64,000 bases of DNA from Candidatus Uhrbacteria bacterium (lineage in GTDB: Bacteria > Patescibacteriota > Patescibacteriia > UBA9934 > GWF2-40-263): NCBI GenBank assembly GCA_016188475.1, contig JACPHT010000001.1, positions 138 to 64,137 of the forward strand, in the 5' to 3' direction. The notes beneath the pieces were generated by a model, which was given only the letters and a program-made list of their open reading frames with translations, did not search any database and was not told the DNA's origin. The translations under genes were made by a program, and so were the position numbers. How positions within the stretch are numbered: the first letter of the stretch is position 1; every line of letters starts with the position of its first letter. Shown piece by piece: positions 41,210 to 53,202 of the stretch.

Positions 41210-41663
41210 TTAAGTGATGTTGCACACTATTTTCTCGGATTCTTTTAGGATTGTTTTGGCCAATGATCGTTCTTTGCTTGTTGTGGGATGAAAATGTATT
41301 TCTGTTTGATATTTTGGCCACTGATCATGCTGAACACGGAAAAAATGGACGATCTCTGCCTCAATAGCTTCAACATGAACACTATCCTCGAAAATCCATA
41401 CAATCAATGAGTGATCGCCATCTTCTTTTAGCCATTTATAACCATGATAGCCTGTTTTGTGATTTGGCTTTACGCCATACCGAATACGAGAACTCATTGA
41501 TTGTTTTGTGATGCCTACATAGTTAATGAGTCCATTTTTTCCGACCAAATATATCTTTTTTCCCTTTTTCGTGACCGGAGCTACAAAATGTCTGATTCCG
41601 TCATTGGCCAAAACAGAAACAATCTCATTATCCTTTACTTTGATTTTGTAAACAAAGTTCATA
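41210..41663 (-). CDS. cassette-encoded GIY-YIG nuclease-like protein
   Basis: KIYLVGKNGLINYVGITKQSMSSRIRYG fits the GIY-x10-YVG-T...R pattern; start at ATG 41663, with GTG alternative at 41680. Confidence 0.5.
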
Positions 41664-41680
41664 ATAGTGCGCAATTTCAC

Positions 41681-41819
41681 TTAACGGCCGGCGGCTGATC
41701 CGAAGTAAAAAGACACCTGACGTTTTTATGTTACAGGTGTCTTTTTATTTTGGATAGCCGCCTGTTGTGCGACGTCGCTTTGCGACGGAGCGCAACAGAG
41801 GCGAAGCCGCCGGCATAAC
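41681..41819. repeat. cassette-junction element, copy 1 (short variant)
   Basis: TTAACGGCCGGCGGC...AAAAAGACACCTG-acgtttttatgtta-CAGGTGTCTTTTT...GCCGCCGGCATAAC. Confidence 0.85.
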
Positions 41820-41882
41820 GTTTGCGTGTATGCGGTGTGGCGTCAGCCATATCGTATACACGCTGTTGTACGGAGTTTGGGC

Positions 41883-42065
41883 TTATCCTTCTCTTGCTTC
41901 TCTTTCTGCTTCGATTTTTTCCAATATCTCTCGTACTTTTTCAGGAGACGCACCAAGCTCTTCGAAGAATCTTACTTGGTCCGATGGAGGAATGGCCATT
42001 AATTTATCCAGGGCATCTTTGGCCTCAGACTCTTGAACTTCATGCTCTCGTGGTTGTTCTCTCAT
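41883..42065 (-). CDS. cassette-encoded small acidic protein
   Basis: 60-aa ORF flanked by attC-like palindromes. Confidence 0.3.
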   Translation of the reverse strand: MREQPREHEVQESEAKDALDKLMAIPPSDQVRFFEELGASPEKVREILEKIEAEREAREG

Positions 42066-42211
42066 ATGTTTAACTTGTTACTGATAAATAGCTAATGTTT
42101 AAATAATAGGATAAGACCAAATTTCGTGCAACGTTCGCGTATGATCCGACGTGATCGACCAGAGGGAGATCATGTTGGATATACGCTGTTAAGCGCCGTA
42201 CTCATTAACAA

Positions 42212-42448
42212 TTACATCGAAGAAAACGGGTCTCCGCATTGAGGACACCTGTCTGAGTTAACTAATCCGTAACTGGTTTTGCAATTTGCGCAATATACAT
42301 TTGCTGCACTTGTACGTCCGTTGGGATCTGGAACCATGGGCACTTTGCATTGAGAGCAAAGCAACTCATTACTGCCAGCGACGGCGGCAATATCAACTGT
42401 ACTATTGCATTGTGGACATTTGTACCCAAAAAATGAACCTGTTTGCAT
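42212..42448 (-). CDS. cassette-encoded zinc-ribbon protein (four CxxC pairs)
   Basis: CPQCN...CSQCK...CANCK...CPQCG. Confidence 0.5.
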   Translation of the reverse strand: MQTGSFFGYKCPQCNSTVDIAAVAGSNELLCSQCKVPMVPDPNGRTSAANVYCANCKTSYGLVNSDRCPQCGDPFSSM

Positions 42449-42466
42449 ATTTTTTCTTATTAAGAA

Positions 42467-42982
42467 TTAGGAACCTATATAAGTTGCAGTGATGTTTCCT
42501 TCTCCCTCGGCTGTGGATTTTGTGCCAGGTTTGAAAAATGTAGGCTTGGTTGTTTTGATGCCAGTTACATTACCTTTGCCTCTAGCAGTGTGTTCGCCGT
42601 CGATGGTAGTAATGAGAGAATTTAAACTTTTGTTCAAATTCTGGGTGGCCCACTCTTCATGCTCTTTTTTCCATTGTTTTAGTTGATCTACAGAGAAATC
42701 AATGCCATTATTTTTGTCGATCATATCAGCACAATTTGAACAAAGAAAAATACCATTATTTGTAGATTTTCTCTGTTCTGATGTTAAGTTTGAGTCATAT
42801 CTTGGGCCACCCTCTGCCGCAGCGGTTATATGGGCTGCTTTGCCTATGTATATAAATTTGTCCTCATTTTCTGCTGATGGGCAAAGTGTCAAATTTTTGC
42901 AATCAGGATTTGAGCAGATATAGGAGGCCCGTTTTCCTATTGCTTCAACTGTATTTTTATCAAATTCGTCTCGAGTTGACAT
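42467..42982 (-). CDS. cassette-encoded HNH endonuclease-like protein
   Basis: CSNPDCKN...AAHI...NGIFLCSNCADMID resembles the HNH beta-beta-alpha-metal motif. Confidence 0.45.
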   Translation of the reverse strand: MSTRDEFDKNTVEAIGKRASYICSNPDCKNLTLCPSAENEDKFIYIGKAAHITAAAEGGPRYDSNLTSEQRKSTNNGIFLCSNCADMIDKNNGIDFSVDQLKQWKKEHEEWATQNLNKSLNSLITTIDGEHTARGKGNVTGIKTTKPTFFKPGTKSTAEGEGNITATYIGS

Positions 42983-43007
42983 AATTTTGTATGTTAATGG
43001 GTATGGC

Positions 43008-43179
43008 GCTTAACGGCCGGCGGCTGATCCGAAGTAAAAAGACACCTGACGTTTTTATGTTACAGGTGTCTTTTTATTTTGGATAGCCGTCTGTTGTGCG
43101 ACGTCGCTTTGCGACGGAGCGCAACAGAGGCGAAGCCGCCGGCCGTTATGCCGATAGAGCAAAGCGATGTCGGCATAAC
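43008..43179. repeat. cassette-junction element, copy 2
   Basis: Near-identical to the other six copies. Confidence 0.85.
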
Positions 43180-43307
43180 GTCCCGCACTTTGCGATGTTT
43201 TGGCCTGTTATAATTTAGCACGAAGTGCTTGAACAGGCCAAAATATGGGCGTAGCGACTGAAAGGAGCGGAGCCGCAAAGTGCGTGTTAAGTGATGTTTT
43301 TATTTTT

Positions 43308-43931
43308 TCAAAGTATGCCAATTGGGCCGATTATTCTAAAGCCCTTCCGAATTGTTTCTTCGGTGTTGATTTCCCAGCACAGTGTCCCATTATAATCCAA
43401 GAATGAAACACCTAAAATTGCGTTATTTCGGGAGGGCGTTTTACTTGCTTTTTCTTGTATAGAATCAAAAATCTTCTTGGTCTTTCCCTTCATATTTTGA
43501 GGAAATTGTACCGGTTTTCTTTGTAGTTCATATGTGACTAAAAATTGCACAAATTTTTTCCAATTTGCTCGTTCACTTAGGAGTGCTCTACTAATGTTTA
43601 GTTCATCGCAGAGATTTTCAATGTTCGTTTTGAGCAAATGAAGGGAAAGACCTTCAATTACGGCGTCATTAATCCAAGTTCCTTCATTTGGATTTTTGTT
43701 ATGAGCGATCACCGCATCTGTTAAAAGTTCCAAAATTCTGAAAGCCGTAATTGAACCGGAGATTTTTGTGTGCAAGGCCCAATTGGCATACAAATTTAAG
43801 TATGGATATTTAGACTGGAAGCCTTTCTCTTCAATGATGTGCCGAAAGGCTGTCATTATTCGGAGGATATCATTTTTACTCCAATTACTATGCGAGAGTA
43901 ATTCTGTGATGTTTTTGATGTGATCTTCCAT
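43308..43931 (-). CDS. cassette-encoded hypothetical protein
   Basis: 207-aa ORF flanked by 27-bp inverted repeats that begin with GTTAAGTGA. Confidence 0.5.
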   Translation of the reverse strand: MEDHIKNITELLSHSNWSKNDILRIMTAFRHIIEEKGFQSKYPYLNLYANWALHTKISGSITAFRILELLTDAVIAHNKNPNEGTWINDAVIEGLSLHLLKTNIENLCDELNISRALLSERANWKKFVQFLVTYELQRKPVQFPQNMKGKTKKIFDSIQEKASKTPSRNNAILGVSFLDYNGTLCWEINTEETIRKGFRIIGPIGIL

Positions 43932-43949
43932 ACTTAAATTTGAAAAATA

Positions 43950-44035
43950 AAAATTTCACTTAACGTTTCGCGATATCCGACGTTTCGTAGAAATGTGGCT
44001 TTAGCCTTTACGGATATCGCGTGTTAGGCGAGGCT
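43950..44035. other. canonical attC-like site
   Basis: ACTTAAC-GTTTCGCGATATCCG...CGGATATCGCG-T-GTTAGGC: RYYYAAC and GTTRRRY boxes with complementary inner arms. Confidence 0.6.
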
Positions 44036-44064
44036 TCAGCTCTTGAGTTTGAATTTAAACTTTT

Positions 44065-44460
44065 TTAATATTTATCCTTAATGTATTTAAGAACTTCTAT
44101 ATCGTGGTCAATAATCTTTAGCTTGTTTATCTCGGAAAGATGAAACCAACCAAAATTTTGTCCTTCGCCTAAAGTAATTATTTTACTCGGATCAAATTCT
44201 TCCACAAAAACATGTTTTTCATTGGTTTCATCTTTCGACAAAAAATCTTGCTTCATTATCATCTTAGGGTTTTTGAGTGTGTAATTCAGCTCTTCAAGTG
44301 TTTCTCGCTTCACAGCCTGTTCTGGAGTTTCACCAGCTTCAATACCGCCACCGAAAAAAGCCCAATATCCAGGCAACCTTTCAGCATCTTCAGCACGATG
44401 TTGAAGTAAGATTTTTTTGTCTTGGTCGTATAAAATTATAATAGCTACGTTTCTCGCCAT
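44065..44460 (-). CDS. cassette-encoded NUDIX hydrolase
   Basis: Nudix box GGGIEAGETPEQAVKRETLEELNY; ORF flanked by 26-bp perfect inverted repeats TTTGAATTTAAACTTTTTTAATATTT. Confidence 0.8.
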   Translation of the reverse strand: MARNVAIIILYDQDKKILLQHRAEDAERLPGYWAFFGGGIEAGETPEQAVKRETLEELNYTLKNPKMIMKQDFLSKDETNEKHVFVEEFDPSKIITLGEGQNFGWFHLSEINKLKIIDHDIEVLKYIKDKY

Positions 44461-44518
44461 ATAGAAGTTCTTAAATGTTAAAATAAAGAAATATTAAAAA
44501 AGTTTAAATTCAAATTTC

Positions 44519-44690
44519 GCCTAACGGCCGGCGGCTGATCCGAAGTAAAAAGACACCTGACGTTTTTATGTTACAGGTGTCTTTTTATTTTGGATAGCCG
44601 CCTGTTGTGCGACGTCGCTTTGCAACGGAGCACAACAGAGGCGAAGCCGCCGGCCGTTATGCCGACAGAGCAAAGCGATGTCGGCATAAC
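44519..44690. repeat. cassette-junction element, copy 3
   Basis: Near-identical copy. Confidence 0.85.
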
Positions 44691-44921
44691 GTTCGTGTGT
44701 ATCTGAAGTTTTCATTCCGCTTCAATGGAATAAACTTTGATTATTAGATACACGCTTTTTAATAGAACCCCACCCAAATCCTCATCAAAACTAAGGGATG
44801 AAAATTTGGGCGGAGGAAAATTGGCACTCCTTAAGGATTTAATTAACGCCAATTTTCCATAGCCAGATACACGCTGTTATACGCTGTAATAAAAAGCCGA
44901 TTCGTTATTGATTTTGGCAAT

Positions 44922-45164
44922 TTATTTTTCTGTTTTGGAACCAAGAAATTTTCCCTCCACTACAACATCTTGTAATGCATTGAATAATTGAAGAACGCCG
45001 TTGCGGTGTTCCTCATTAACTTGAGGAAGTATTTCTTGAGTTAAACGAGCAAGACCTTCTGTAACTTTCCCTTTTGCATATTCTGGTAATGCTTTCATAT
45101 TGGGAGTCAATTCTACTGATAGCGAGGCTTTTGCGCCAACCTCTGGCCTGAATGTTTCTGTCAT
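44922..45164 (-). CDS. cassette-encoded hypothetical protein
   Basis: 80-aa ORF. Confidence 0.35.
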   Translation of the reverse strand: MTETFRPEVGAKASLSVELTPNMKALPEYAKGKVTEGLARLTQEILPQVNEEHRNGVLQLFNALQDVVVEGKFLGSKTEK

Positions 45165-45274
45165 ATTTTTTTAAGTTAATTATTACTTTGATTATACTAT
45201 GAGTTATACTCGACCGCTTCAAATAAATTGCCAAAATCAATATTCAAATTTCACAATCGGCTTTTTATTATGGC

Positions 45275-45446
45275 GTATAACGGCCGGCGGCTGATCCGAA
45301 GTAAAAAGACACCTGACGTTTTTATGTTACAGGTGTCTTTTTATTTTGGATAGCCGCCGGTTGTGCGACGTCGCTTTGCGACGGAGCGCAACAGAGGCGA
45401 AGCCGCCGGCCGTTATGCCGACAGAGCAAAGCGATGTCGGCATAAC
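45275..45446. repeat. cassette-junction element, copy 4
   Basis: Near-identical copy; terminator hairpin at 45303-45347. Confidence 0.85.
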
Positions 45447-45689
45447 GTTCCTGCGTATGCGATGTTTGCCAGTGGTATAATTGCACGAAGTGCTTACCAC
45501 TGGCAAATATGGGTGGAGGCTTGCGGAGGTACGAAGCAAGCCGTAACCGCATACGCAGTGTTATATGATGTACATGTTTTCCTTTAATTTCTGAAAGAAA
45601 TTGCTCTTATAAAAGAATCCGGTTTTGTTTTTCCGTTTGGGGCGAAGGGCAGAGGGGATTAAGGGGTGAATGCCCGAGCCCCAAACACT

Positions 45690-46298
45690 TTAATCTTCTT
45701 CACCCTCAATTCTTTTTCTGCGCTCATCTAGCGTTTCGCCTTCATACATCCAATAAGCTGTTCCTTGAATTCCGTAATCATAACCGAGAATTTTTTGTGC
45801 AGAAGAAGAAAGACTTGTAACTTTGCCATTAAAATTGATGGATTTATTATCAACCACATTTGCCTTAATGTTTTCATCGCGACTAAAAATTAATTCTGCA
45901 CCAACCGGAATGTTGACCATCTTAAAATTAAACTTAGCTCGCATTTCTGCACGTGCTTGATTTAGGGCATGCTGATCTTCTTTTGATTCCACGAAGTCTT
46001 TTTTAGGCGTAATATCTTCAATCTCTGCCAATTTAAGTGCAGAAACTACACGTTCTGGAGAGATTTGAAAAAATTCTCGTCTTGGATTTGTTCGGTTATT
46101 GTCAAATGCATCATGTAGCTGATGTTCAACAAAGGCTGCGTCTTTTACGGTACATGCGTAGAAACAAGTAAAAGGAAGTGGAACGCTCGTGGAAGCGCTA
46201 AGCTCTCTAATCCTTTGCTCAAGGCTTGTTGAAGTTTTGCCAATTTTTACATATCCAGGCATGGCTTCATTGATGAGAATGTAGATGATTTCAATCAT
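45690..46298 (-). CDS. T5orf172 (GIY-YIG-like) domain protein, second gene of the candidate defense pair
   Basis: IYILINEAMPGYVKIGKT...RIREL...PLPF...RREFF matches the T5orf172 pattern; start ATG overlaps the upstream stop (ATGA). Confidence 0.6.
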   Translation of the reverse strand: MIEIIYILINEAMPGYVKIGKTSTSLEQRIRELSASTSVPLPFTCFYACTVKDAAFVEHQLHDAFDNNRTNPRREFFQISPERVVSALKLAEIEDITPKKDFVESKEDQHALNQARAEMRAKFNFKMVNIPVGAELIFSRDENIKANVVDNKSINFNGKVTSLSSSAQKILGYDYGIQGTAYWMYEGETLDERRKRIEGEED

Positions 46299-48013
46299 AA
46301 TTTTATAGATTTATTTGGTGCTAAAAGTTCCTTAATTTTTGAAATTAAAGGTTTGAAATTCCCAAAAGTATCCGAGCTGGTTTCAGCTTGAACTTTATTT
46401 AAAAATTTGCCTTTATCGAAAGTGGTGATTGACGTAGTTGCACTATATGAGCCAGGTCTTACTTCCGTAGAGTAAACGTCATCTGTGAATAAGGTATCGG
46501 GGTATAGATTTTCAATGCCAACAGCTTTTCCATCTTTATCTTTAGCCTTTGTATTTGCAGAATTTTCCGCAAAGCAAAACTTTTTAAAGCTTTCTGTTTC
46601 TGTAATGCTGTTTATCATGGAGGCGCAGTCACAATCCCAAACAAAAAGGAACTTTCCGCTAAAATCACCGGACGACATTACGTCAAAAGCGTTTTTCAAC
46701 TGTTGCCCGCGCTTATCTGGCGAACCTTCTATAATTTTAATTTGACTAAGTAAAGTGTTGTCGAGGATTTCAAAAGCTTTTTTAATATGCTCTGTATTAT
46801 TTCCCTCCGTAACAATTTGTAAACTTTTCGTGCCATCAATCTCTTTTTGTATTTTTAAACCCTTTTCAAAGGTTATGATCCCCTCGCTTAAAAGGTTAAT
46901 AGCGTCTCCCTGTGATATTTTTCTGATTTTTTCATTTTTTTTGCCCTTCTGTATCTCAAATAGTGATTCTTCATATGCTAATGCGACCGTGGTCGGAGAA
47001 TGGGTAGCAAGAATAACCTTACAGCCGTTTTTTATGAACACATTTTGAATCACATCCAATAAATCTTGAATCATGGATGGATGAAGTGATGCATCTACTT
47101 CATCAAGAAGTAACAATGCAGGAAATTCTGATTTGTTATCTTGATAAACTGTAATAGCCAGTGCGCACAATATCTTTTCACCCGATGACAAGTCTTCAAA
47201 ATCAATTTCTTCATCATCTATGGAGAGTTTTACTTGAAATGATACAGCTTGACTATTTATCAGATCTCCAGCTGTAAATTCTGGATGTGAAATAGTATGA
47301 AGTAGCCCAAACTCTTTAAACATGCTGTTTACAAAATTCCATGGAGATTGTTCTTCTATTTTTTTGATTTGGCTATCGTTTAATCCTTCTCCGCCGTCGC
47401 TTTCTCTTAATTTTGCCACGGTTAGTTTTTTTTGATAATCAAGAAAAACTTCGCTTAAACTTTCTAGAAGCTCGTACTCATCTGGGCTGTAGTTTGAAAA
47501 TTTAAAAAATTCTGCCTGTGTGATTTCCGAAGCGTATTTAACAGACTCGAATACGCCCGTTTTTAAAAGCTTCTTAATTTTGGGATTATCTTTTGTATGC
47601 TTATTTATAAAGGTTAGAATATCCTTTTTTTGTTCAGCGTATTTTTGTTTTTGTGCTTTTGGCACTTCAAAATCATAGGGGTACTCCTTTTCGCCCACGA
47701 ATGTTTTAATTTGATTGTCGTAATTTTGGAATTGTTGCCTTTGAGAATTTAAGATATTCCACGCTTGCATTTTTTCATCATCAAGATTCCGTGGGGCAAT
47801 TTTAGCCTGGTTCTTTATGAGAAATGTTTGTAGGTTAAAGTACGAAATCCTTTCTTTTTGTATGTTGTCAGCTGAAACAAAGCCCTCTTGCATCGCCTTG
47901 AGCAAGTGAGTTTTTCCAGCGCCGTTTACACCTAGAAATATCGAAAAGTCCTTAATATCAATTTCACTAAAGTTGGCGATTGATTTATGTTTTTGATTGA
48001 ATTTAATATTCAT
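46295..48013 (-). CDS. OLD-like ABC-type ATPase fused to a C-terminal TOPRIM-like nuclease domain
   Basis: Walker A GVNGAGKTHLLKA, ABC signature LSSGEKI, Walker B LLLLDEVDASLHP, H-loop ATHSP; C-terminal IVTEGNNTE ... FVWDCDC resembles TOPRIM Glu and DxD. Confidence 0.6.
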   Translation of the reverse strand: MNIKFNQKHKSIANFSEIDIKDFSIFLGVNGAGKTHLLKAMQEGFVSADNIQKERISYFNLQTFLIKNQAKIAPRNLDDEKMQAWNILNSQRQQFQNYDNQIKTFVGEKEYPYDFEVPKAQKQKYAEQKKDILTFINKHTKDNPKIKKLLKTGVFESVKYASEITQAEFFKFSNYSPDEYELLESLSEVFLDYQKKLTVAKLRESDGGEGLNDSQIKKIEEQSPWNFVNSMFKEFGLLHTISHPEFTAGDLINSQAVSFQVKLSIDDEEIDFEDLSSGEKILCALAITVYQDNKSEFPALLLLDEVDASLHPSMIQDLLDVIQNVFIKNGCKVILATHSPTTVALAYEESLFEIQKGKKNEKIRKISQGDAINLLSEGIITFEKGLKIQKEIDGTKSLQIVTEGNNTEHIKKAFEILDNTLLSQIKIIEGSPDKRGQQLKNAFDVMSSGDFSGKFLFVWDCDCASMINSITETESFKKFCFAENSANTKAKDKDGKAVGIENLYPDTLFTDDVYSTEVRPGSYSATTSITTFDKGKFLNKVQAETSSDTFGNFKPLISKIKELLAPNKSIKL

Positions 48014-48192
48014 AGTTTACTTCAAGTGTGGAAATCACAAATTGGCGTTATTTTACTCCGTTTCCTCCTATAAATAAATCGTTTTCGGAGCGGAGCGTAG
48101 AAAACTCCTTATTTCCCCTCTATAAAAAAAGAAAAACAAAACCGGATTCTTTTTAAGAGCTTGGCGAAGCCAAAAAGGAAAACATGTATTTC

Positions 48193-48340
48193 ATATAACG
48201 GCTGGCGGCTGATCCGAAGTAAAAAGACACCTGACGTTTTTATGTTACAGGTGTCTTTTTATTTTGGATAGCCGCCTGTTGTGCGACGTCGCTTTGCGAC
48301 GGAGCGCAACAGAGGCGAAGCCGCCGGCCGTTATGCCGAC
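48193..48340. repeat. cassette-junction element, copy 5
   Basis: Near-identical copy (CGGCTGG variant at the left arm). Confidence 0.85.
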
Positions 48341-48481
48341 AGAGGCGGAACAAAAATTTGGGAGAAGGAATTTTTCTTACCTTGAATTATAAATGTGAAA
48401 AATTCCTGAACCGGATATGCCGTGTTGTGCGATGTCCGCATTTGCCCGCCCTTGTTAGTTGGAAATGGATGCCCCGAAATC

Positions 48482-49060
48482 TTATTGCAAAATCTTTTCC
48501 AATAGTTCAGGAAACTCCTCGGTTTTCATATCGCCCAAGCAGTAATGACCTCGCCCTTTTAGCTCGACAATCTCGCCACCAAGCACCTCATGAAAAATTT
48601 TTAAACTTTTTTTACCGTCTTCCTCCTCGTCGTCCGCAGTGAACATAACTATTTGATTTATCCTATCCTTGATAGACGAGTCAATCTGATATGTATAGAA
48701 ATTTACATCGGTACCACTTCTTTTTTCTTGCGGAATTTTCCAAGGCGCGACTAAAAAAAGTTTAAAAATTTTGGTCTTAGTCTCACTAAGCCAGCGAACC
48801 AAGAAGGCGCAACCGCAACTATGTCCAACTAAAATTGTGTTTTCATCAACAGTATATTTTTCAAATTCAGCCTTAAATTTTTCATAATCAGGTTGCCAAG
48901 GCGAGGGCATGAGAGGAGTTTCCGTTTCAATATTTTTTGCAATAAGATTTCTTTTTAACCACGGAATCCAGTGCTTGTCATAAGTCCTTGTTTCAGGATT
49001 CATCGCTTTTTCAGCATCAGAGGGGCATCCATGGATTATGATACATCTATTCTTTGTCAT
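48482..49060 (-). CDS. cassette-encoded alpha/beta hydrolase (RBBP9/YdeN-like serine hydrolase)
   Basis: IIIHGCPS ... LVGHSCG nucleophile elbow. Confidence 0.55.
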   Translation of the reverse strand: MTKNRCIIIHGCPSDAEKAMNPETRTYDKHWIPWLKRNLIAKNIETETPLMPSPWQPDYEKFKAEFEKYTVDENTILVGHSCGCAFLVRWLSETKTKIFKLFLVAPWKIPQEKRSGTDVNFYTYQIDSSIKDRINQIVMFTADDEEEDGKKSLKIFHEVLGGEIVELKGRGHYCLGDMKTEEFPELLEKILQ

Positions 49061-49325
49061 ATGGTTGAATGTTATTTTTAGCACTAGGGCAAATGCGGAT
49101 TTCGCACAACGTATCCAAATATCTGAAGTTTCGCACTTTGGTTTTAAGGCTAAAATCTTTGATATCCAGACTATTTTGTTAGTTTAATTATACTATACAT
49201 TATCACAAAACGGAAAAGTGCGAAATTTGGGTCGAGAAAATTTTTCACTCTTTATTATTTCTAATAAATGAAAAATTTTGGAGCCAGATATTTGGTGTTC
49301 AACGATGTTGCGAGGATTTTCGTTT

Positions 49326-49547
49326 TTATTTCTCAGAATGTTTTAATTTAATCAAATCATATATTGCAGAAACGGTAAAAATAATTTGCAAAATAATAAA
49401 TATTAAATCGCTTAGGTAAATACTGTATATTTCCAGGCATACTCCGCCAACAATATACATCAAGTCCTGCGTACGACGATTTTTATTTATAATGCCAGCG
49501 GATATTAATAATAATCCGACCGCGCCTATCATCTTAAAAATTGACAT
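49326..49547 (-). CDS. cassette-encoded small membrane protein
   Basis: About 73 aa; three hydrophobic helices. Confidence 0.4.
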   Translation of the reverse strand: MSIFKMIGAVGLLLISAGIINKNRRTQDLMYIVGGVCLEIYSIYLSDLIFIILQIIFTVSAIYDLIKLKHSEK

Positions 49548-49594
49548 ATTATTTTGCAAATTATTTTGTTTTCAGGAAAAAATCCTCGCAATTT

Positions 49595-49700
49595 CGTTGA
49601 ACGTTCACCGATAAGCGAAGTTTTATTGAGCAAAGCGAAATAAAATTTGCGAAAAACTCGGGCTGAGAGTTTTTCCGCTTATCGCGTTGTTATACGCCCC
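49595..49700. other. attC-like site
   Basis: TTGAAC-GTTCACCGATAAGCG...CGCTTATCGCG-T-GTTATAC. Confidence 0.55.
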
Positions 49701-49758
49701 GAGCGAAACGAAGTGTAGCGAGAGCGCAGCGTGGTGCGGAGCGTAGCGGAGCAAGTTG

Positions 49759-50262
49759 CTAATTTGCCCGTTTCATCTGCTGGACTTTTTTTAAAAACAC
49801 AATATCTCTTTGCTGAATAAAAGAACCCTCATAATTTGTTGGTTTATCGTTTTCAACTTTGGAAATTGCTTCATCTAATGGCAACCAAACGAGTTTAAAG
49901 TTTTGGCTTAATTCCTCTTCCGTGAAAGCAGGCGACCCTTTTGATGTTATTTTGCCTATATAACAATAGGATATTTGTTTCAAATTGAAATTTGAACGAT
50001 ATTCAATAATTTCCCCAACTTCACCAGTGACTTTAATTTCACTCCCGACTTCTTCCATAACTTCGCGGACCAGAGCTGCGGCCTTATTTTCGCCATCGTC
50101 GATTCCGCCGCCAGGTAATTTGTGATAGTTATAATTTGAAACAAATAGAAGAGGAATTAAGCCATTCTCGTCAAAAAGCACAGCTCTTGATGCTTCTCTA
50201 ATTTCCAAAGTTGATTCATCTTTAGGCCACTCTTTGTCTTTTATCTCGTGTAATAGTTCCAT
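49759..50262 (-). CDS. cassette-encoded NUDIX hydrolase
   Basis: Nudix box GGGIDDGENKAAALVREVMEEVGSE. Confidence 0.8.
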   Translation of the reverse strand: MELLHEIKDKEWPKDESTLEIREASRAVLFDENGLIPLLFVSNYNYHKLPGGGIDDGENKAAALVREVMEEVGSEIKVTGEVGEIIEYRSNFNLKQISYCYIGKITSKGSPAFTEEELSQNFKLVWLPLDEAISKVENDKPTNYEGSFIQQRDIVFLKKVQQMKRAN

Positions 50263-50323
50263 AGTAAATTATGAGGGTTCTTTATTTTTATAAATGTATC
50301 GGCAAGGGCAAATTAGCAATTGC

Positions 50324-50468
50324 GTATAACGGCCGGCGGCTGATCCGAAGTAAAAAGACACCTGACGTTTTTATGTTACAGGTGTCTTTTTATTTTGGAT
50401 AGCCGCCTGTTGTGCGACGTCGCTTTGCGACGGAGCGCAACAGAGGCGAAGCCGCCGGCCGTTATGCC
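50324..50468. repeat. cassette-junction element, copy 6
   Basis: Near-identical copy. Confidence 0.85.
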
Positions 50469-50549
50469 ATTACCGCCTAAGCGAGAGAAGGATGGCGTAT
50501 ACGCGCTGTTGTACGATTGCAGAACACCAACTTGAATTATGTAATCTTG

Positions 50550-51158
50550 CTAAATAGTAGTATGGACAAAGTCGTAAAATTGAGAAAAGTCTTTGACGAC
50601 AATAGACGGATTGCCGTTAATTAAATTTTGTTCATTTTGGTAACCACCAAGAATTCCAACAATTATTTTCACACCAACCTTCTTAGCTTCAGCAATATCT
50701 CCGGCTGTGTCGGTAATAAAAGTAACATTATTGGGTTCCAGAGCATATTTTTCAAATAGCATCTTAAATTTTTCTACCTTGCTTGTATGAACCTCATTGC
50801 CAAGAATCTTTTGAAAACAGGATAGTATGCCATGGCTCTGAAGATAGTCTTGAATGATATCACTTCGAGTACTTGAAATAATAAATAGTTGGAACTCTTG
50901 TGATAATTTTTGAATAAAGTCTTTCTTTTTTGAATCAATACCTAAATGTTTGAAACGGTCCCCGTACTCTCTAAAAAAGTCTATTTTTTTTACGACTTTG
51001 TCCTCGTATTTTACTTCATTAATATTACCATTGAAGGCATTTTGATATCGCTCCAAAGTTAAAGTTGGCCTTGAGAGCTTATTCACTTCAAAAGCTATGT
51101 CAAAACTATCAGCGATTACTCCATCAAAGTCGAAGATAATAGTAGGCTTATGATCCAT
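50550..51158 (-). CDS. cassette-encoded HAD-family hydrolase
   Basis: IIFDFDGVIADS motif I (DxDG). Confidence 0.7.
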   Translation of the reverse strand: MDHKPTIIFDFDGVIADSFDIAFEVNKLSRPTLTLERYQNAFNGNINEVKYEDKVVKKIDFFREYGDRFKHLGIDSKKKDFIQKLSQEFQLFIISSTRSDIIQDYLQSHGILSCFQKILGNEVHTSKVEKFKMLFEKYALEPNNVTFITDTAGDIAEAKKVGVKIIVGILGGYQNEQNLINGNPSIVVKDFSQFYDFVHTTI

Positions 51159-51189
51159 AGATCTTAAATAAAAGGGTGTTCTGCTTTTC

Positions 51190-51305
51190 GTACAACGTTC
51201 GCGCATAAGCGATGTTTGCCAGTTGTATAATATGCCGTTAGGCTTACAACTGGCAAATATGGGTGGAGCGACGAGGTACGAGGAGCGGAACCGTTTATGC
51301 GCTGT
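51190..51305. other. attC-like site
   Basis: GTACAAC-GTTCGCGCATAAGCG...CGTTTATGCGC-T-GTTAAGT with internal TTTGCCAGTTGTA/TACAACTGGCAAA dyad. Confidence 0.55.
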
Positions 51306-51326
51306 TAAGTGATGTGTTTGAGAATT

Positions 51327-52034
51327 CTACTTCAAATAGGTTTCCAGATTTTTGACCATTCGCCCCACATAAAGGTTTAGGCTTTTTTGGCCAATTTCCT
51401 TATTAACAATCCAATCGGGATGATTATCTGCAATTCCATTCGGACTTTTTTCAGCTATATTATCAGTTTCAAAGGCATCTTCGATGAAGGTCTTTTTTTC
51501 GTCTTTGCTTGGCGGAATGACAGTCGCTTCATCTATTACCATCATGTTTGAAATTTCGGTATTGCCTGCATGTCCATCTGATGGACCGCCAAGCATTTCA
51601 ACAAGCTTTTGTTCATCCTCATCGTTGCACATCTCAAGATGAACTATTTTAGCGGGCTGAAAAAAGTCCGATTTTTCTCGGATAAACTTTTGAATATATG
51701 GGTCATTATGATGAAACGATGTAATGAAAATATAATCTGCTTTTTGAAAAATAGAATTGCAGATATCAAACATTACTTGAGCAAGTGTTTCTTCGGTAAG
51801 ATAGACTGTGCCAAAAAAGCCACGGTGCTCTTGTGCACGAGAGAACTCTAACGTTGGAAGAATTACCAGCTCAGGAAACTGTTTCTCAACTTGATCAACA
51901 AGATAGTCAGTAATATACGTGTCAGTACCGAAGGGGGCGAATGGTCCATGTTGCTCAAGCGAACCTATTGGAACGACGAAATTGTATTTTGTATCACCAG
52001 ATAAATCTGGAAACCTCATTCTTTTTAATCTCAT
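51327..52034 (-). CDS. cassette-encoded creatininase-family amidohydrolase
   Basis: VVPIGSLEQHGP ... GTD ... GHAGNTE motifs. Confidence 0.65.
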   Translation of the reverse strand: MRLKRMRFPDLSGDTKYNFVVPIGSLEQHGPFAPFGTDTYITDYLVDQVEKQFPELVILPTLEFSRAQEHRGFFGTVYLTEETLAQVMFDICNSIFQKADYIFITSFHHNDPYIQKFIREKSDFFQPAKIVHLEMCNDEDEQKLVEMLGGPSDGHAGNTEISNMMVIDEATVIPPSKDEKKTFIEDAFETDNIAEKSPNGIADNHPDWIVNKEIGQKSLNLYVGRMVKNLETYLK

Positions 52035-52065
52035 ATTTTTAGTATAGATGAATTCTCAAACATTT

Positions 52066-52214
52066 CACTTAACGGCCGGCGGCTGATCCGAAGTAAAAAG
52101 ACACCTGACGTTTTTATGTTACAGGTGTCTTTTTATTTTGGATAGCCGCCTGTTGTGCGACGTCGCTTTGCGACGGAGCGCAACAGAGGCGAAGCCGCCG
52201 GCATGTCGGCATAA
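52066..52214. repeat. cassette-junction element, copy 7 (short variant), proximal to the recombinase
   Basis: Near-identical copy about 155 bp from the recombinase start. Confidence 0.85.
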
Positions 52215-52371
52215 CTAGTAAATATACGAACTTGTGTCGGATAAAATACTTTGAAAATGAATTATATGATGTGAGTAACCTGCGTTGACAAGTACATGAA
52301 ATCATGTAACAATAAGATTGTAAATAACCTCCTATTCTAATCTTGATGGGCGGTTTTTTTATATCTTCAAT

Positions 52372-53202
52372 ATGTTTTTAATTTCTAATACCGAACAAGC
52401 GTTGTTGTCTATTGACCAACTTCTACGCATAAAAAATTACAGTCCAAAAACAATAAAAAGTTACAAGGGCTGTTTGGCTAGATTCTTAAAACAGTTTCCT
52501 GATTGTTTGAACTATTCAAACATCGAGTGTATCAAAACATTCCTTTTATCCATGCGCGAATCTGGATTATCTCCTCAAACTATCAATGTACATCTTCAGG
52601 CAATACAATTTTATTTTCGTGAAATCTTACATCAACCATTCCGTTTCACTCTACCATACGCAAAACGACCGAAACGGTTGCCTGTCATACTTTCTAGATC
52701 AGAAATTGAACAAATTCTAAACCATATATCAAACACAAAACATAAAACCATGATCGCTCTGGCTTATGGGGCGGGACTCCGTGTCTCTGAAGTGGTTGAG
52801 TTGCGCTCTGGAAACGTAGATTTTCCTTCCGGAGTTTTATATATTTATCAAAGTAAAGGCAAAAAAGATCGTATAACAATTCTTCCAGAAATATTGCGCG
52901 ATGAATTACAAAAAGCGGTTTGTGGAAAATCACCGAACGATTATCTTTTTGCCAGCGAACGAGGCGGACGTTTGTCTGAACGTTCAATTCAAAAAGTATT
53001 TTCTCGTGCGCTTCATTCAACACAGATAAACAAACAAGCAACATTTCATTCACTGCGTCATAGCTTCGCAACACACGTTTTGGAACAAGGAACTGACATC
53101 AGATTCATTCAAAAACTTCTTGGCCATGCAAATATTAGAACAACACAAATTTACACTCACGTTTCAACAGCTTCTATCAGTGCAATCAAAAGCCCGCTAT
53201 AG
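52372..53202 (+). CDS. tyrosine site-specific recombinase, integron-integrase-like (XerC/D superfamily)
   Basis: R...HSLRHSFATHVLEQGTDIRFIQKLLGH...TTQIYTHV catalytic core; LPVILSRSEIEQIL and GAGLRVSEVVELRSGNVDF...YQSKGKKDRIT segments resemble IntI as recalled; transcribed divergently from the cassette array; appears to lack the long IntI-specific insertion. Confidence 0.7.
   Translation: MFLISNTEQALLSIDQLLRIKNYSPKTIKSYKGCLARFLKQFPDCLNYSNIECIKTFLLSMRESGLSPQTINVHLQAIQFYFREILHQPFRFTLPYAKRPKRLPVILSRSEIEQILNHISNTKHKTMIALAYGAGLRVSEVVELRSGNVDFPSGVLYIYQSKGKKDRITILPEILRDELQKAVCGKSPNDYLFASERGGRLSERSIQKVFSRALHSTQINKQATFHSLRHSFATHVLEQGTDIRFIQKLLGHANIRTTQIYTHVSTASISAIKSPL

What the first reader, a model, noticed from the sequence alone, without database searches (positions are those of the whole stretch)
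45603..48160. Candidate two-gene antiphage module: OLD-like ABC-ATPase/TOPRIM fusion translationally coupled to a T5orf172 protein
The 572-aa protein (46295-48013) has a complete ABC/SMC-type ATPase head (Walker A, LSSGE signature, Walker B, H-loop) and a C-terminal region with an invariant-looking Glu (IVTEGNNTE) and a D-x-D (WDCDC), which is the TOPRIM arrangement of OLD / GajA / PARIS-AriB nucleases. Its stop overlaps the ATG (ATGA) of a 202-aa T5orf172 / GIY-YIG-like protein (45690-46298). Described OLD-family systems pair with UvrD-like helicases (Gabija), retrons, or a split ATPase/TOPRIM (PARIS); I am not aware of a described pairing with a small T5orf172 partner. The pair is integron-cassette cargo and is bounded by about 30-bp inverted repeats (GCTCTTATAAAAGAATCCGGTTTTGTTTTTC at 45603-45633; reverse complement at 48131-48160).
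Basis: partly seen in the sequence, partly recalled or inferred. Interest (0 to 1): 0.9.

Follow-up and report, generated by a model that had tools for sequence, protein, structure and literature searches.

The report
OLD-type nuclease plus mobile restriction-like nuclease
Two real nuclease genes share one integron-type gene cassette in a candidate-phylum bacterium, but they are two separately known kinds of single-gene phage-defence candidate that happen to travel together, not a new two-gene system.

Summary
The window has a 572-aa ABC-ATPase protein (46295-48013, minus strand) whose stop overlaps (ATGA) the start of a 202-aa T5orf172 protein (45690-46298). Inverted repeats flank the pair.

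The small protein matches PADLOC candidate PDC-S57 (E 6e-73). It is a GIY-YIG/T5orf172 nuclease fused to a RAMA domain, an architecture described in 2016.

The pairing is not conserved. It recurs only in one related cassette from a sediment metagenome. It is absent from six other close OLD lineages and from all 20 loci holding distant homologues. The T5orf172-RAMA ORF moves on its own: after a type III restriction gene, before a methylase, inside an ATP-synthase operon, or alone.

Best reading: a class-1-type OLD nuclease and an independently mobile restriction-like nuclease stacked in one cassette. Both are new members of known kinds, so interest is modest. The integron-like platform, whose recombinase lacks the IntI-specific segment, is a more unusual by-product.

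The parts
46295..48013 (-). Gene for the 572-aa OLD-family protein (ABC ATPase plus TOPRIM), stop codon included
   Evidence: ORF. Pfam AAA_21 8.6e-19, AAA_15 1.2e-12, SMC_N 3.8e-9. 679 homologues found at E<=1e-3.
46901..48013 (-). ABC/SMC-type ATPase head with an inserted helical region (aa 1-371)
   Evidence: Pfam alignment covers aa 24-343. Walker A, signature, Walker B, D-loop and H-loop residues are invariant. The closest solved sequences are the retron Ec83/Ec78 ATPase PtuA and AriA.
46298..46900 (-). TOPRIM nuclease domain (aa 372-572): E403 at 46805-46807, D460/D462 at 46628-46636, GIEN at 46508-46519
45690..46298 (-). Gene for the 202-aa T5orf172(GIY-YIG)-RAMA nuclease; its ATG overlaps the OLD stop codon (ATGA)
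   Evidence: ORF. Pfam T5orf172 5.3e-17 and MUG113 4.4e-13. PADLOC PDC-S57 6.2e-73, full length.
46032..46289 (-). T5orf172 / GIY-YIG catalytic domain (aa 4-89)
45729..45941 (-). RAMA-like DNA-binding domain (approximately aa 120-190)
48014..48199 (-). 5' flank of the cassette: boundary box GTTATAT (48193-48199 on the gene strand), the two right inverted-repeat arms (48174-48199, 48126-48153) and the leader
   Evidence: Repeats. Homology with L091 starts exactly at the GTTATAT box, and the flank is about 94% identical.
45560..45689 (-). 3' flank: GGGGC/GCCCC hairpin, left inverted-repeat arms (45611-45638, 45560-45585) and box ATATAAC (45560-45566 on the gene strand)
   Evidence: About 93% identical to L091 up to the point where that terminal cassette breaks off.
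45412..45566 (-). attC-like recombination site of the cassette, read on the gene strand: R'' ATATAAC, L'' ACTGCGTATGCG, L' CGCATACGCAG, R' GTTATGC
   Evidence: Sequence and DNA folding. Other spacers of the array have the same box order.
52372..53202 (+). Divergently oriented tyrosine recombinase of the array (context only, not part of the gene pair)
   Evidence: Pfam Phage_integrase 1.6e-44. NCBIfam XerA/integron-integrase model 214.5 bits against a cut-off of 220. Lacks 41 aa of IntI1.

Best explanation
The cassette carries two autonomous nuclease genes, not one two-component machine.

Gene 1 encodes a single-polypeptide OLD-family enzyme of the class 1 type. An ABC ATPase head probably acts as the sensor or switch, and it is fused to a two-metal TOPRIM nuclease. 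By analogy with P2 Old, Vibrio cholerae OLD and PARIS, it should stay inactive until a phage cue drives ATP-dependent activation. It would then cut DNA or tRNA and stop the infection, possibly at the cost of the cell.

Gene 2 encodes a GIY-YIG (T5orf172) nuclease fused to a RAMA domain. RAMA is a DNA-binding module predicted to read the adenine-methylation state of DNA. The protein would therefore be a solitary restriction-type nuclease that is itself a horizontally mobile ORF.

The two genes sit in one cassette of an integron-like array, are probably co-transcribed, and are translationally linked by the ATGA overlap. That arrangement lets them be captured and moved together.

What is shown: the folds, the catalytic motifs, the lack of conservation of the pair, the independent mobility of gene 2, and the cassette boundaries. 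What is inferred: the substrates, the triggers and the defence phenotype.
For: OLD identity:
- ABC ATPase profiles match and the catalytic motifs are invariant.
- E403 and D460 are invariant and D462 nearly so, at the canonical strand ends.
- The architecture is uniform across 794 clusters.

Single-gene behaviour:
- 20 loci with distant homologues share no recurrent neighbour and contain no T5orf172.
- Close homologues sit between secA and leuA, beside GmrSD/AbiJ, or inside a type IIB-like R-M operon.
- Class 1 is defined in the literature as a single-gene ATPase-TOPRIM (PMC10568477, PMC12392090).

Gene 2:
- It matches PDC-S57 over its full length.
- Its two halves are GIY-YIG and RAMA folds.
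- RAMA fused to T5orf172 nucleases was described in PMC4738411.
- Homologues lie after a type III res gene, before an N6_N4 methylase, between atpG and atpD, after an unknown 131-aa gene, or alone.
- Nucleotide homology between copies is confined to the ORF.

Shared cassette:
- The same pair with the same flanks is the second cassette beside a related recombinase in L091.
Against: - The two genes are as tightly linked as operon partners. They overlap by 4 nt here and are 11 nt apart in L091, and they have stayed together while synonymous sites became saturated in the OLD gene (dS about 3.5) and reached 0.87 in gene 2. That could reflect functional dependence.
- Only about eight close OLD lineages could be examined for context, so the real frequency of the pairing is poorly known.
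- No activity, trigger or phenotype was tested.
- The RAMA assignment rests on a predicted structure (pLDDT 82) and one weak HMM hit.
- No adenine methylase was found in the 64-kb window, so what the RAMA domain would discriminate in this host is unknown.
Confidence: 0.6

Rival explanations
1. One reading: an obligate two-gene defence system in which the OLD-like ATPase/TOPRIM and the T5orf172 protein work together, as GajA works with GajB or AriA with AriB.
For: ATGA overlap and co-orientation. The pair is retained in a second, diverged cassette. Other OLD classes do work with partners (PMC10568477).
Against: Six other close OLD lineages and all 20 loci with distant homologues lack the partner. 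No recurrent neighbour of any kind was found. The T5orf172-RAMA family has more than 2000 homologues found, with other or no partners.
Confidence: 0.1
2. The T5orf172-RAMA gene is a selfish, homing-endonuclease-like ORF that inserted downstream of the OLD gene and contributes nothing to defence. The OLD gene is the only adaptive cargo.
For: A homologue sits between atpG and atpD of an ATP-synthase operon. Homology between copies starts and stops at the ORF ends. Copies are 80-92% identical across several candidate phyla. T5orf172 genes are homing endonucleases in phages and cluster near essential genes (PMC10448857).
Against: The insertion sites are diverse rather than one cognate target. Three of seven contexts are next to methylase or restriction genes, which fits a restriction role. 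PADLOC lists the family as a defence candidate. The phage homing enzymes carry zinc-finger DNA-binding domains, not RAMA.
Confidence: 0.22
3. The OLD-like protein backs up restriction, like PrrC or PARIS. It is held in check by, or monitors, an adjacent restriction-type nuclease (here T5orf172-RAMA) and fires when a phage anti-restriction protein appears.
For: This OLD clade recurs next to restriction genes: between a type IIB-like R-M subunit and an HsdS-like gene; directly after GmrSD, with an HsdS remnant downstream; and near an N6_N4 methylase with the same remnant. PARIS is composed of an ABC ATPase and a TOPRIM nuclease (PMC11464382); that it is triggered by anti-restriction proteins is from my own knowledge.
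Against: Defence genes cluster anyway, so proximity is weak evidence. Some homologues sit among housekeeping genes. Distant homologues show no such pattern. No DUF4435/AriB-type signature is present.
Confidence: 0.06
4. The locus is not defensive at all: the OLD-like protein has a housekeeping role in DNA metabolism or the cell cycle, as reported for archaeal Cran1.
For: An OLD-family ATPase with a non-defence role exists (PMC12796447). Some homologues lie among core genes.
Against: Distribution is patchy, the gene rides in a mobile cassette, and some homologues sit in defence islands. The family is absent from most genomes, with 794 clusters out of 1.84 billion representatives.
Confidence: 0.02

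Closest known systems
Class 1 OLD family nucleases (P2 Old, Thermus scotoductus OLD, Vibrio cholerae OLD, E. coli YbjD)
   Different: The TOPRIM sequence is too divergent for any Pfam, NCBIfam or PDB sequence profile. It has a TEGxN motif and an extra invariant GIEN motif. The closest fold is the retron Ec67 TOPRIM rather than Ts OLD. The host is a candidate-phylum (Patescibacteria) bacterium and the gene is carried in an integron-like cassette.
PARIS (class 4 OLD; AriA ABC ATPase plus AriB DUF4435 TOPRIM, sometimes fused)
   Same: ABC ATPase plus TOPRIM. PADLOC AriA models match the ATPase (E 3.6e-22). Fused forms of PARIS are known (PMC12392090).
Gabija (class 2 OLD GajA plus UvrD-like GajB)
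   Different: The downstream gene is a 202-aa GIY-YIG/RAMA protein, not a helicase. That partner is not conserved.
PADLOC candidate PDC-S57; RAMA-fused T5orf172 nucleases of Iyer, Zhang and Aravind 2016
   Same: Full-length HMM match (E 6e-73). The two-domain GIY-YIG plus RAMA architecture is the same.
   Different: None detected. The window protein is an ordinary member, 80-92% identical to more than 100 listed homologues. The family's function remains untested.
Phage T5orf172 homing endonucleases (ICP1 and T5-like phages)
   Same: The T5orf172 catalytic domain. The ORF behaves as a free-standing mobile gene, including insertion in an essential operon.
   Different: The DNA-binding part is RAMA instead of CapR/zinc-finger repeats. 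Hosts are cellular genomes rather than phages, and several copies lie beside methylases.
Integron gene cassettes encoding phage defence
   Same: Co-oriented promoterless-looking cassettes, each ending in an attC-like site with R''-L''...L'-R' boxes, next to a divergent tyrosine recombinase. Defence genes as integron cargo are documented (bioRxiv 10.1101/2024.07.02.601719).
   Different: The recombinase lacks the 41-aa IntI-specific segment. Stems extend 12-60 bp beyond the R boxes, so each cassette is flanked by its own long inverted repeat.

Membership tests
OLD family nuclease | N-terminal ABC-type ATPase with Walker A, signature motif, Walker B and H-loop | tested here: met
   Pfam AAA_21, AAA_15 and SMC_N match. 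All motif residues are invariant in 34 homologues.
OLD family nuclease | C-terminal TOPRIM fold with a conserved Glu and a DxD | tested here: met
OLD family nuclease | Sequence-profile match of the C-terminal domain to a curated TOPRIM/OLD model | tested here: not met
   No Pfam family at E<=10 shared by family members, no NCBIfam hit, and no PDB sequence hit.
OLD family nuclease | ATP-dependent nuclease activity and phage interference | not testable with these tools
   Needs biochemistry and phage assays.
Class 1 OLD | Single-gene system with no conserved adjacent partner | tested here: met
   No recurrent neighbour in 20 loci with distant homologues. Close homologues have varied neighbours. 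In this cassette lineage only, a T5orf172 gene follows.
Class 2 OLD / Gabija | [quoted passage not shown] | tested here: not met
   The downstream gene is T5orf172-RAMA. No ORF other than the two genes lies between the cassette boundaries.
Class 3 OLD / retron | Adjacent reverse transcriptase and retron non-coding RNA | tested here: not met
   No RT ORF lies in the cassette. Rfam finds no retron RNA between 41000 and 53000.
Class 4 OLD / PARIS | AriB-type (DUF4435) TOPRIM, separate or fused | tested here: not met
PADLOC PDC-S57 | Full-length match to the PDC-S57 profile | tested here: met
   PDLC05041: E 6.2e-73, protein residues 3-200 on profile positions 6-209 of 212.
GIY-YIG / T5orf172 nucleases | T5orf172 profile match, GIY-YIG fold and conserved Tyr, Tyr, Arg and Glu | tested here: met
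RAMA domain proteins | RAMA fold or profile in the C-terminal half | tested here: met
Integron | Array of co-oriented cassettes, each ending in an attC with R''-L''...L'-R' boxes | tested here: met
   Box order and stems were read and folded for eight spacers. Cassette-specific inverted repeats were found. No attC covariance model was available to run.
Integron | IntI integrase carrying the IntI-specific additional segment | tested here: not met
   Alignment to IntI1 shows that 41 residues (ALPDALERKYP...W.W...) are absent. TIGR02249 scores 205.7 bits against a cut-off of 265.
Homing endonuclease gene | Free-standing nuclease ORF that moves as a unit and interrupts conserved operons | tested here: inconclusive
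   A homologue lies between atpG and atpD, and homology is limited to the ORF. No cognate empty site or target cleavage could be examined.

The most novel reading that the evidence does not exclude
The pairing is functional in a guard-and-restriction sense. The RAMA-T5orf172 protein is a front-line, methylation-reading restriction nuclease. This OLD clade is a PrrC/PARIS-like second line that is wired to whichever restriction module it sits beside: type IIB-like R-M plus HsdS, GmrSD, or here T5orf172-RAMA. It would fire when a phage disables that module. This would add a restriction-linked class to the OLD family.
Probability: 0.1. Interest if true: 0.65.

Novelty: new member of a known kind. 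Interest (0 to 1): 0.33.

Why it matters
- The verdict removes a claimed new two-gene defence system and replaces it with two assignable parts.
- It shows that a sizeable OLD subfamily (794 clusters at 50% identity) is invisible to the Pfam and NCBIfam profiles searched here and was recognised only by fold. Annotation based on such profiles may therefore under-count class-1-type OLD genes, particularly in candidate-phylum bacteria.
- It gives the untested PADLOC candidate PDC-S57 a concrete, testable mechanism: a GIY-YIG nuclease guided by a RAMA methyl-adenine reader.
- It documents that ORF moving on its own, even into an ATP-synthase operon.
- If the minority reading is right, the repeated placement of this OLD clade inside restriction operons would point to a restriction-guard role like that of PrrC and PARIS.

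Tried and rejected
- Sequence profiles for the C-terminal domain found nothing: Pfam on 26 members, NCBIfam, and a PDB hmmsearch with a profile. Only the fold comparison worked.
- Foldseek against viral structures gave no significant hit; the best was an RloB-like protein at probability 0.63.
- The afdb50 library was unavailable.
- Rfam on 41-53 kb gave only sub-threshold microRNA-like hits on the repeat hairpins. I rejected a known RNA family for the flanks or the repeat.
- The metagenome scan with the single OLD protein returned only five loci, so context sampling relied on exact-protein look-ups.
- tblastn of the OLD protein against plasmids found only ATPase-level relatives.
- My first reading of the flanking repeats was an inside-out attC or a dif-module-like site. 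I dropped it once the spacers were read on the gene strand and showed canonical R''-L''...L'-R' order. The unusual part that remains is the stem extension beyond the R boxes.
- I looked for an adenine methylase partner in the window by tblastn with five methylases and a D/N/S-PP-Y/F/W motif scan. None was found.
- The promoter and terminator consensus scan found no more sites than in shuffled sequence.
Full report
**Observation.** The two ORFs are as described: 46295..48013 (minus strand, 572 aa) and 45690..46298 (minus strand, 202 aa). They share an ATGA stop/start overlap. An exact-sequence match names the source as a Candidatus Uhrbacteria (Patescibacteria) genome.

A second block lies outside it, 45560-45585 versus 48174-48199. 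The repeats are not chance. In an independent sediment-metagenome contig (L091) the same cassette occurs with both flanks 93-95% identical. The OLD gene there is only 73% identical at the nucleotide level (dS saturated, about 3.5) and the small gene 86% (dS 0.87).

**The large protein.**
- Pfam places AAA_21, AAA_15 and SMC_N on residues 8-356.
- In an alignment of 34 homologues at 29-79% identity, Walker A, the LSSGE signature, Walker B, the D-loop and the H-loop are invariant.
- Residues 372-572 match nothing in Pfam (26 family members scanned), NCBIfam or PDB sequences.
- An AlphaFold2 model of this domain, built from a 26-sequence alignment, has pLDDT 88.8.
- The invariant E403 follows the first strand and D460-x-D462 follows the third strand, the canonical TOPRIM positions. 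A further invariant GIEN motif (499-502) follows.
- A profile of the domain finds 794 clusters at 50% identity among 1.84 billion representatives. Most of the 150 listed hits are 550-630 aa with the domain at the C-terminus, and the shorter ones are probably fragments.

The OLD/TOPRIM interpretation is therefore right, although no sequence profile would have shown it.

**Which OLD class.** The literature defines four classes:
- class 1: single genes;
- class 2: followed by a UvrD-like helicase (Gabija);
- class 3: retron effectors;
- class 4: the split or fused PARIS proteins (PMC10568477, PMC12392090).

Here there is no helicase, no reverse transcriptase or retron RNA, and no DUF4435 signature. 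Twenty loci with distant full-length homologues share no recurrent neighbour within 3 kb. The family behaves as class 1.

**The small protein.**
- It matches Pfam T5orf172 and MUG113 on residues 4-89.
- Over its full length it matches the PADLOC single-gene candidate PDC-S57 (E 6e-73).
- More than 2000 homologues were found. The best 120 are 78-92% identical and come from several candidate phyla and other bacteria.
- Y6, Y16, G20, R29 and the R74-E75-F-F motif are invariant.
- That half is therefore a RAMA domain. Pfam RAMA also hits one family member weakly and is on record for another.
- Iyer, Zhang and Aravind named RAMA for its fusion to adenine methylases and to nucleases, T5orf172 among them. 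They proposed that it discriminates N6-methyladenine in DNA (PMC4738411).
- T5orf172 is a GIY-YIG subfamily whose phage members are homing endonucleases (PMC10448857).

**Is the pair a unit?** Only at the level of this cassette. The same two genes with the same flanks occur in L091-L093 (OLD 76% and small protein 92% amino-acid identity; in L092/L093 the small gene is frameshifted). Other close OLD homologues have no T5orf172 neighbour:

| OLD homologue | Identity | Context |
|---|---|---|
| P0002/P0003 | 79% | N6_N4 methylase about 750 nt upstream |
| P0008 | 75% | directly after GmrSD, in an island with AbiJ and HNH genes |
| P0014 | 73% | between a 680-aa type IIB-like restriction-methylase and a 469-aa HsdS-like protein |
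| P0023 | 72% | between secA and leuA |
| P0013 | 71% | no T5orf172 |
| P0026 | 68% | among unrelated small genes |

Short HsdS-like N-terminal remnants follow the OLD stop codon in the P0002 and P0008 loci.

The T5orf172-RAMA gene, in turn, occurs in these places:
- 3 nt after a type III res gene;
- alone;
- 4 nt after an unknown 131-aa gene;
- 4 nt before an N6_N4 methylase;
- between atpG and atpD of an ATP-synthase operon;
- alone on plasmids, once beside a type II R-M system.

Nucleotide homology between these copies begins at the start codon and ends at the stop codon. The small gene is therefore an independently mobile ORF.

**Platform.** A 276-aa tyrosine recombinase (52372-53202, plus strand) faces an array of minus-strand cassettes. 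Read on the gene strand, the spacers show the canonical attC order R''-L''...L'-R'. For this cassette that is ATATAAC...ACTGCGTATGCG...CGCATACGCAG...GTTATGC at 45566 down to 45412. Homology with L091 begins exactly at the GTTATAT box at 48199. 'Integron-cassette cargo' is thus reasonable, and defence genes in integron cassettes are documented.

The platform has two atypical features:
- The recombinase lacks the 41-residue IntI-specific segment while keeping the catalytic residues.
- The stems continue beyond the R boxes, with a 5-nt mismatched spacer followed by 12-60 bp. This is why every cassette, including this one, is flanked by its own long inverted repeat.

**Mechanism.** I consider it most likely (0.6) that the cassette stacks two autonomous nucleases.
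- The first is a class-1-type OLD enzyme whose ATPase gates a two-metal TOPRIM nuclease. Its target could be DNA, as for Ts and Vc OLD, or tRNA, as for P2 Old and AriB (PMC12392090, PMC12445682, PMC12409363).
- The second is a GIY-YIG nuclease directed by a RAMA reader of adenine methylation.

Folds, motifs, contexts and cassette boundaries are shown. Substrates, triggers and phenotype are inferred.

Rivals:
- an obligate pair (0.10);
- a purely selfish homing-type insertion (0.22);
- a PrrC/PARIS-like guard of the neighbouring restriction module (0.06);
- a non-defence role (0.02).

**Verdict.** Both genes are new members of known kinds, and the pairing is a cassette-level coincidence or convenience rather than a new system. 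Interest is modest (0.33). The by-products are more unusual than the pair itself: a profile-invisible OLD subfamily, a mechanism for PDC-S57, and an integron-like platform without the IntI signature.

Noticed in passing
window 41600-53202 (recombinase 52372-53202, plus strand; cassettes on the minus strand); also L091 4338-8450: This is an integron-like array in a Patescibacteria genome. Its 276-aa tyrosine recombinase keeps the catalytic residues but lacks the 41-aa IntI-specific segment of IntI1. It scores just under the NCBIfam 'XerA/integron integrase' cut-off, and the L091 homologue passes that cut-off. The cassettes have canonical attC box order.
   Followed up: partly
window 51301-27/52050-76, 49297-320/49579-602, 48424-47/49087-110, 45560-638/48126-199, 44873-902/45255-84, 43286-307/43943-64, 42185-210/42992-43017, 41865-89/42108-32: Every cassette is flanked by its own inverted repeat. 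On the gene strand the pattern is GTTRNRY-GAAAT-arm ... arm'-ACATC-RYNYAAC. The attC stem thus continues 12-60 bp outside the R boxes, past a 5-nt spacer with a conserved mismatch. The first cassette of L091 shows the same pattern. I do not know this feature from classical attC sites.
   Followed up: partly
window 41682-41814, 43003-43200, 44522-44711, 45270-45470, 48194-48344, 50319-50468, 52070-52202: A repeat of about 135-200 nt, 94-99% identical between copies, occurs seven times. It reads as an ORF-less cassette: TTATGC, a short hairpin, then a 144-nt attC (GCATAAC-GGCCG-GCGGCT ... AGCCGC-CGGCC-GTTATAC). It matches no Rfam family. Its role is unknown (spacer, promoter or small RNA).
   Followed up: partly
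window 48014-48199 and 45560-45689, compared with L091 5818-6000 and 8334-8450: The non-coding flanks of the cassette are 93-95% identical between two arrays, while the enclosed genes have dS of 0.87 and about 3.5. The flanks therefore evolve far more slowly than synonymous sites, which implies strong constraint on nearly every flank position.
   Followed up: partly
L135 1954-7111; L082 6708-6823; L083 6708-6800: In close relatives the OLD-like gene is embedded in a restriction operon: a 680-aa HSDR_N_2/N6_Mtase/Eco57I protein, then OLD, then a 469-aa HsdS-like protein, with gaps of 3-4 nt. Two other lineages keep truncated HsdS-like N-termini right after the OLD stop codon. This recalls PrrC and Rlo genes inside type I R-M loci.
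   Followed up: partly
L145 2531-5503 (also L146-L148): A T5orf172-RAMA ORF 85% identical to the window protein sits between atpG and atpD of an F-type ATP-synthase operon. MNT/HepT toxin-antitoxin pairs lie just upstream of atpG (in L148 also after a short ATP-synt fragment), so the site looks like an insertion hotspot in an essential operon.
   Followed up: partly
L092 7725-8332 and L093 6725-7314: In a second assembly of the L091 cassette the T5orf172-RAMA gene is split by a frameshift near codon 36. This is either an assembly error or decay of the small gene while the OLD gene stays intact.
   Followed up: no
window 42467-44460 and 48482-52034: The other cassettes of the array that were scanned encode small metabolic-type enzymes: two NUDIX proteins, a HAD hydrolase, a creatininase-family protein and a serine hydrolase. 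Several small ORFs have no Pfam match. The array is therefore not a dedicated defence island.
   Followed up: partly
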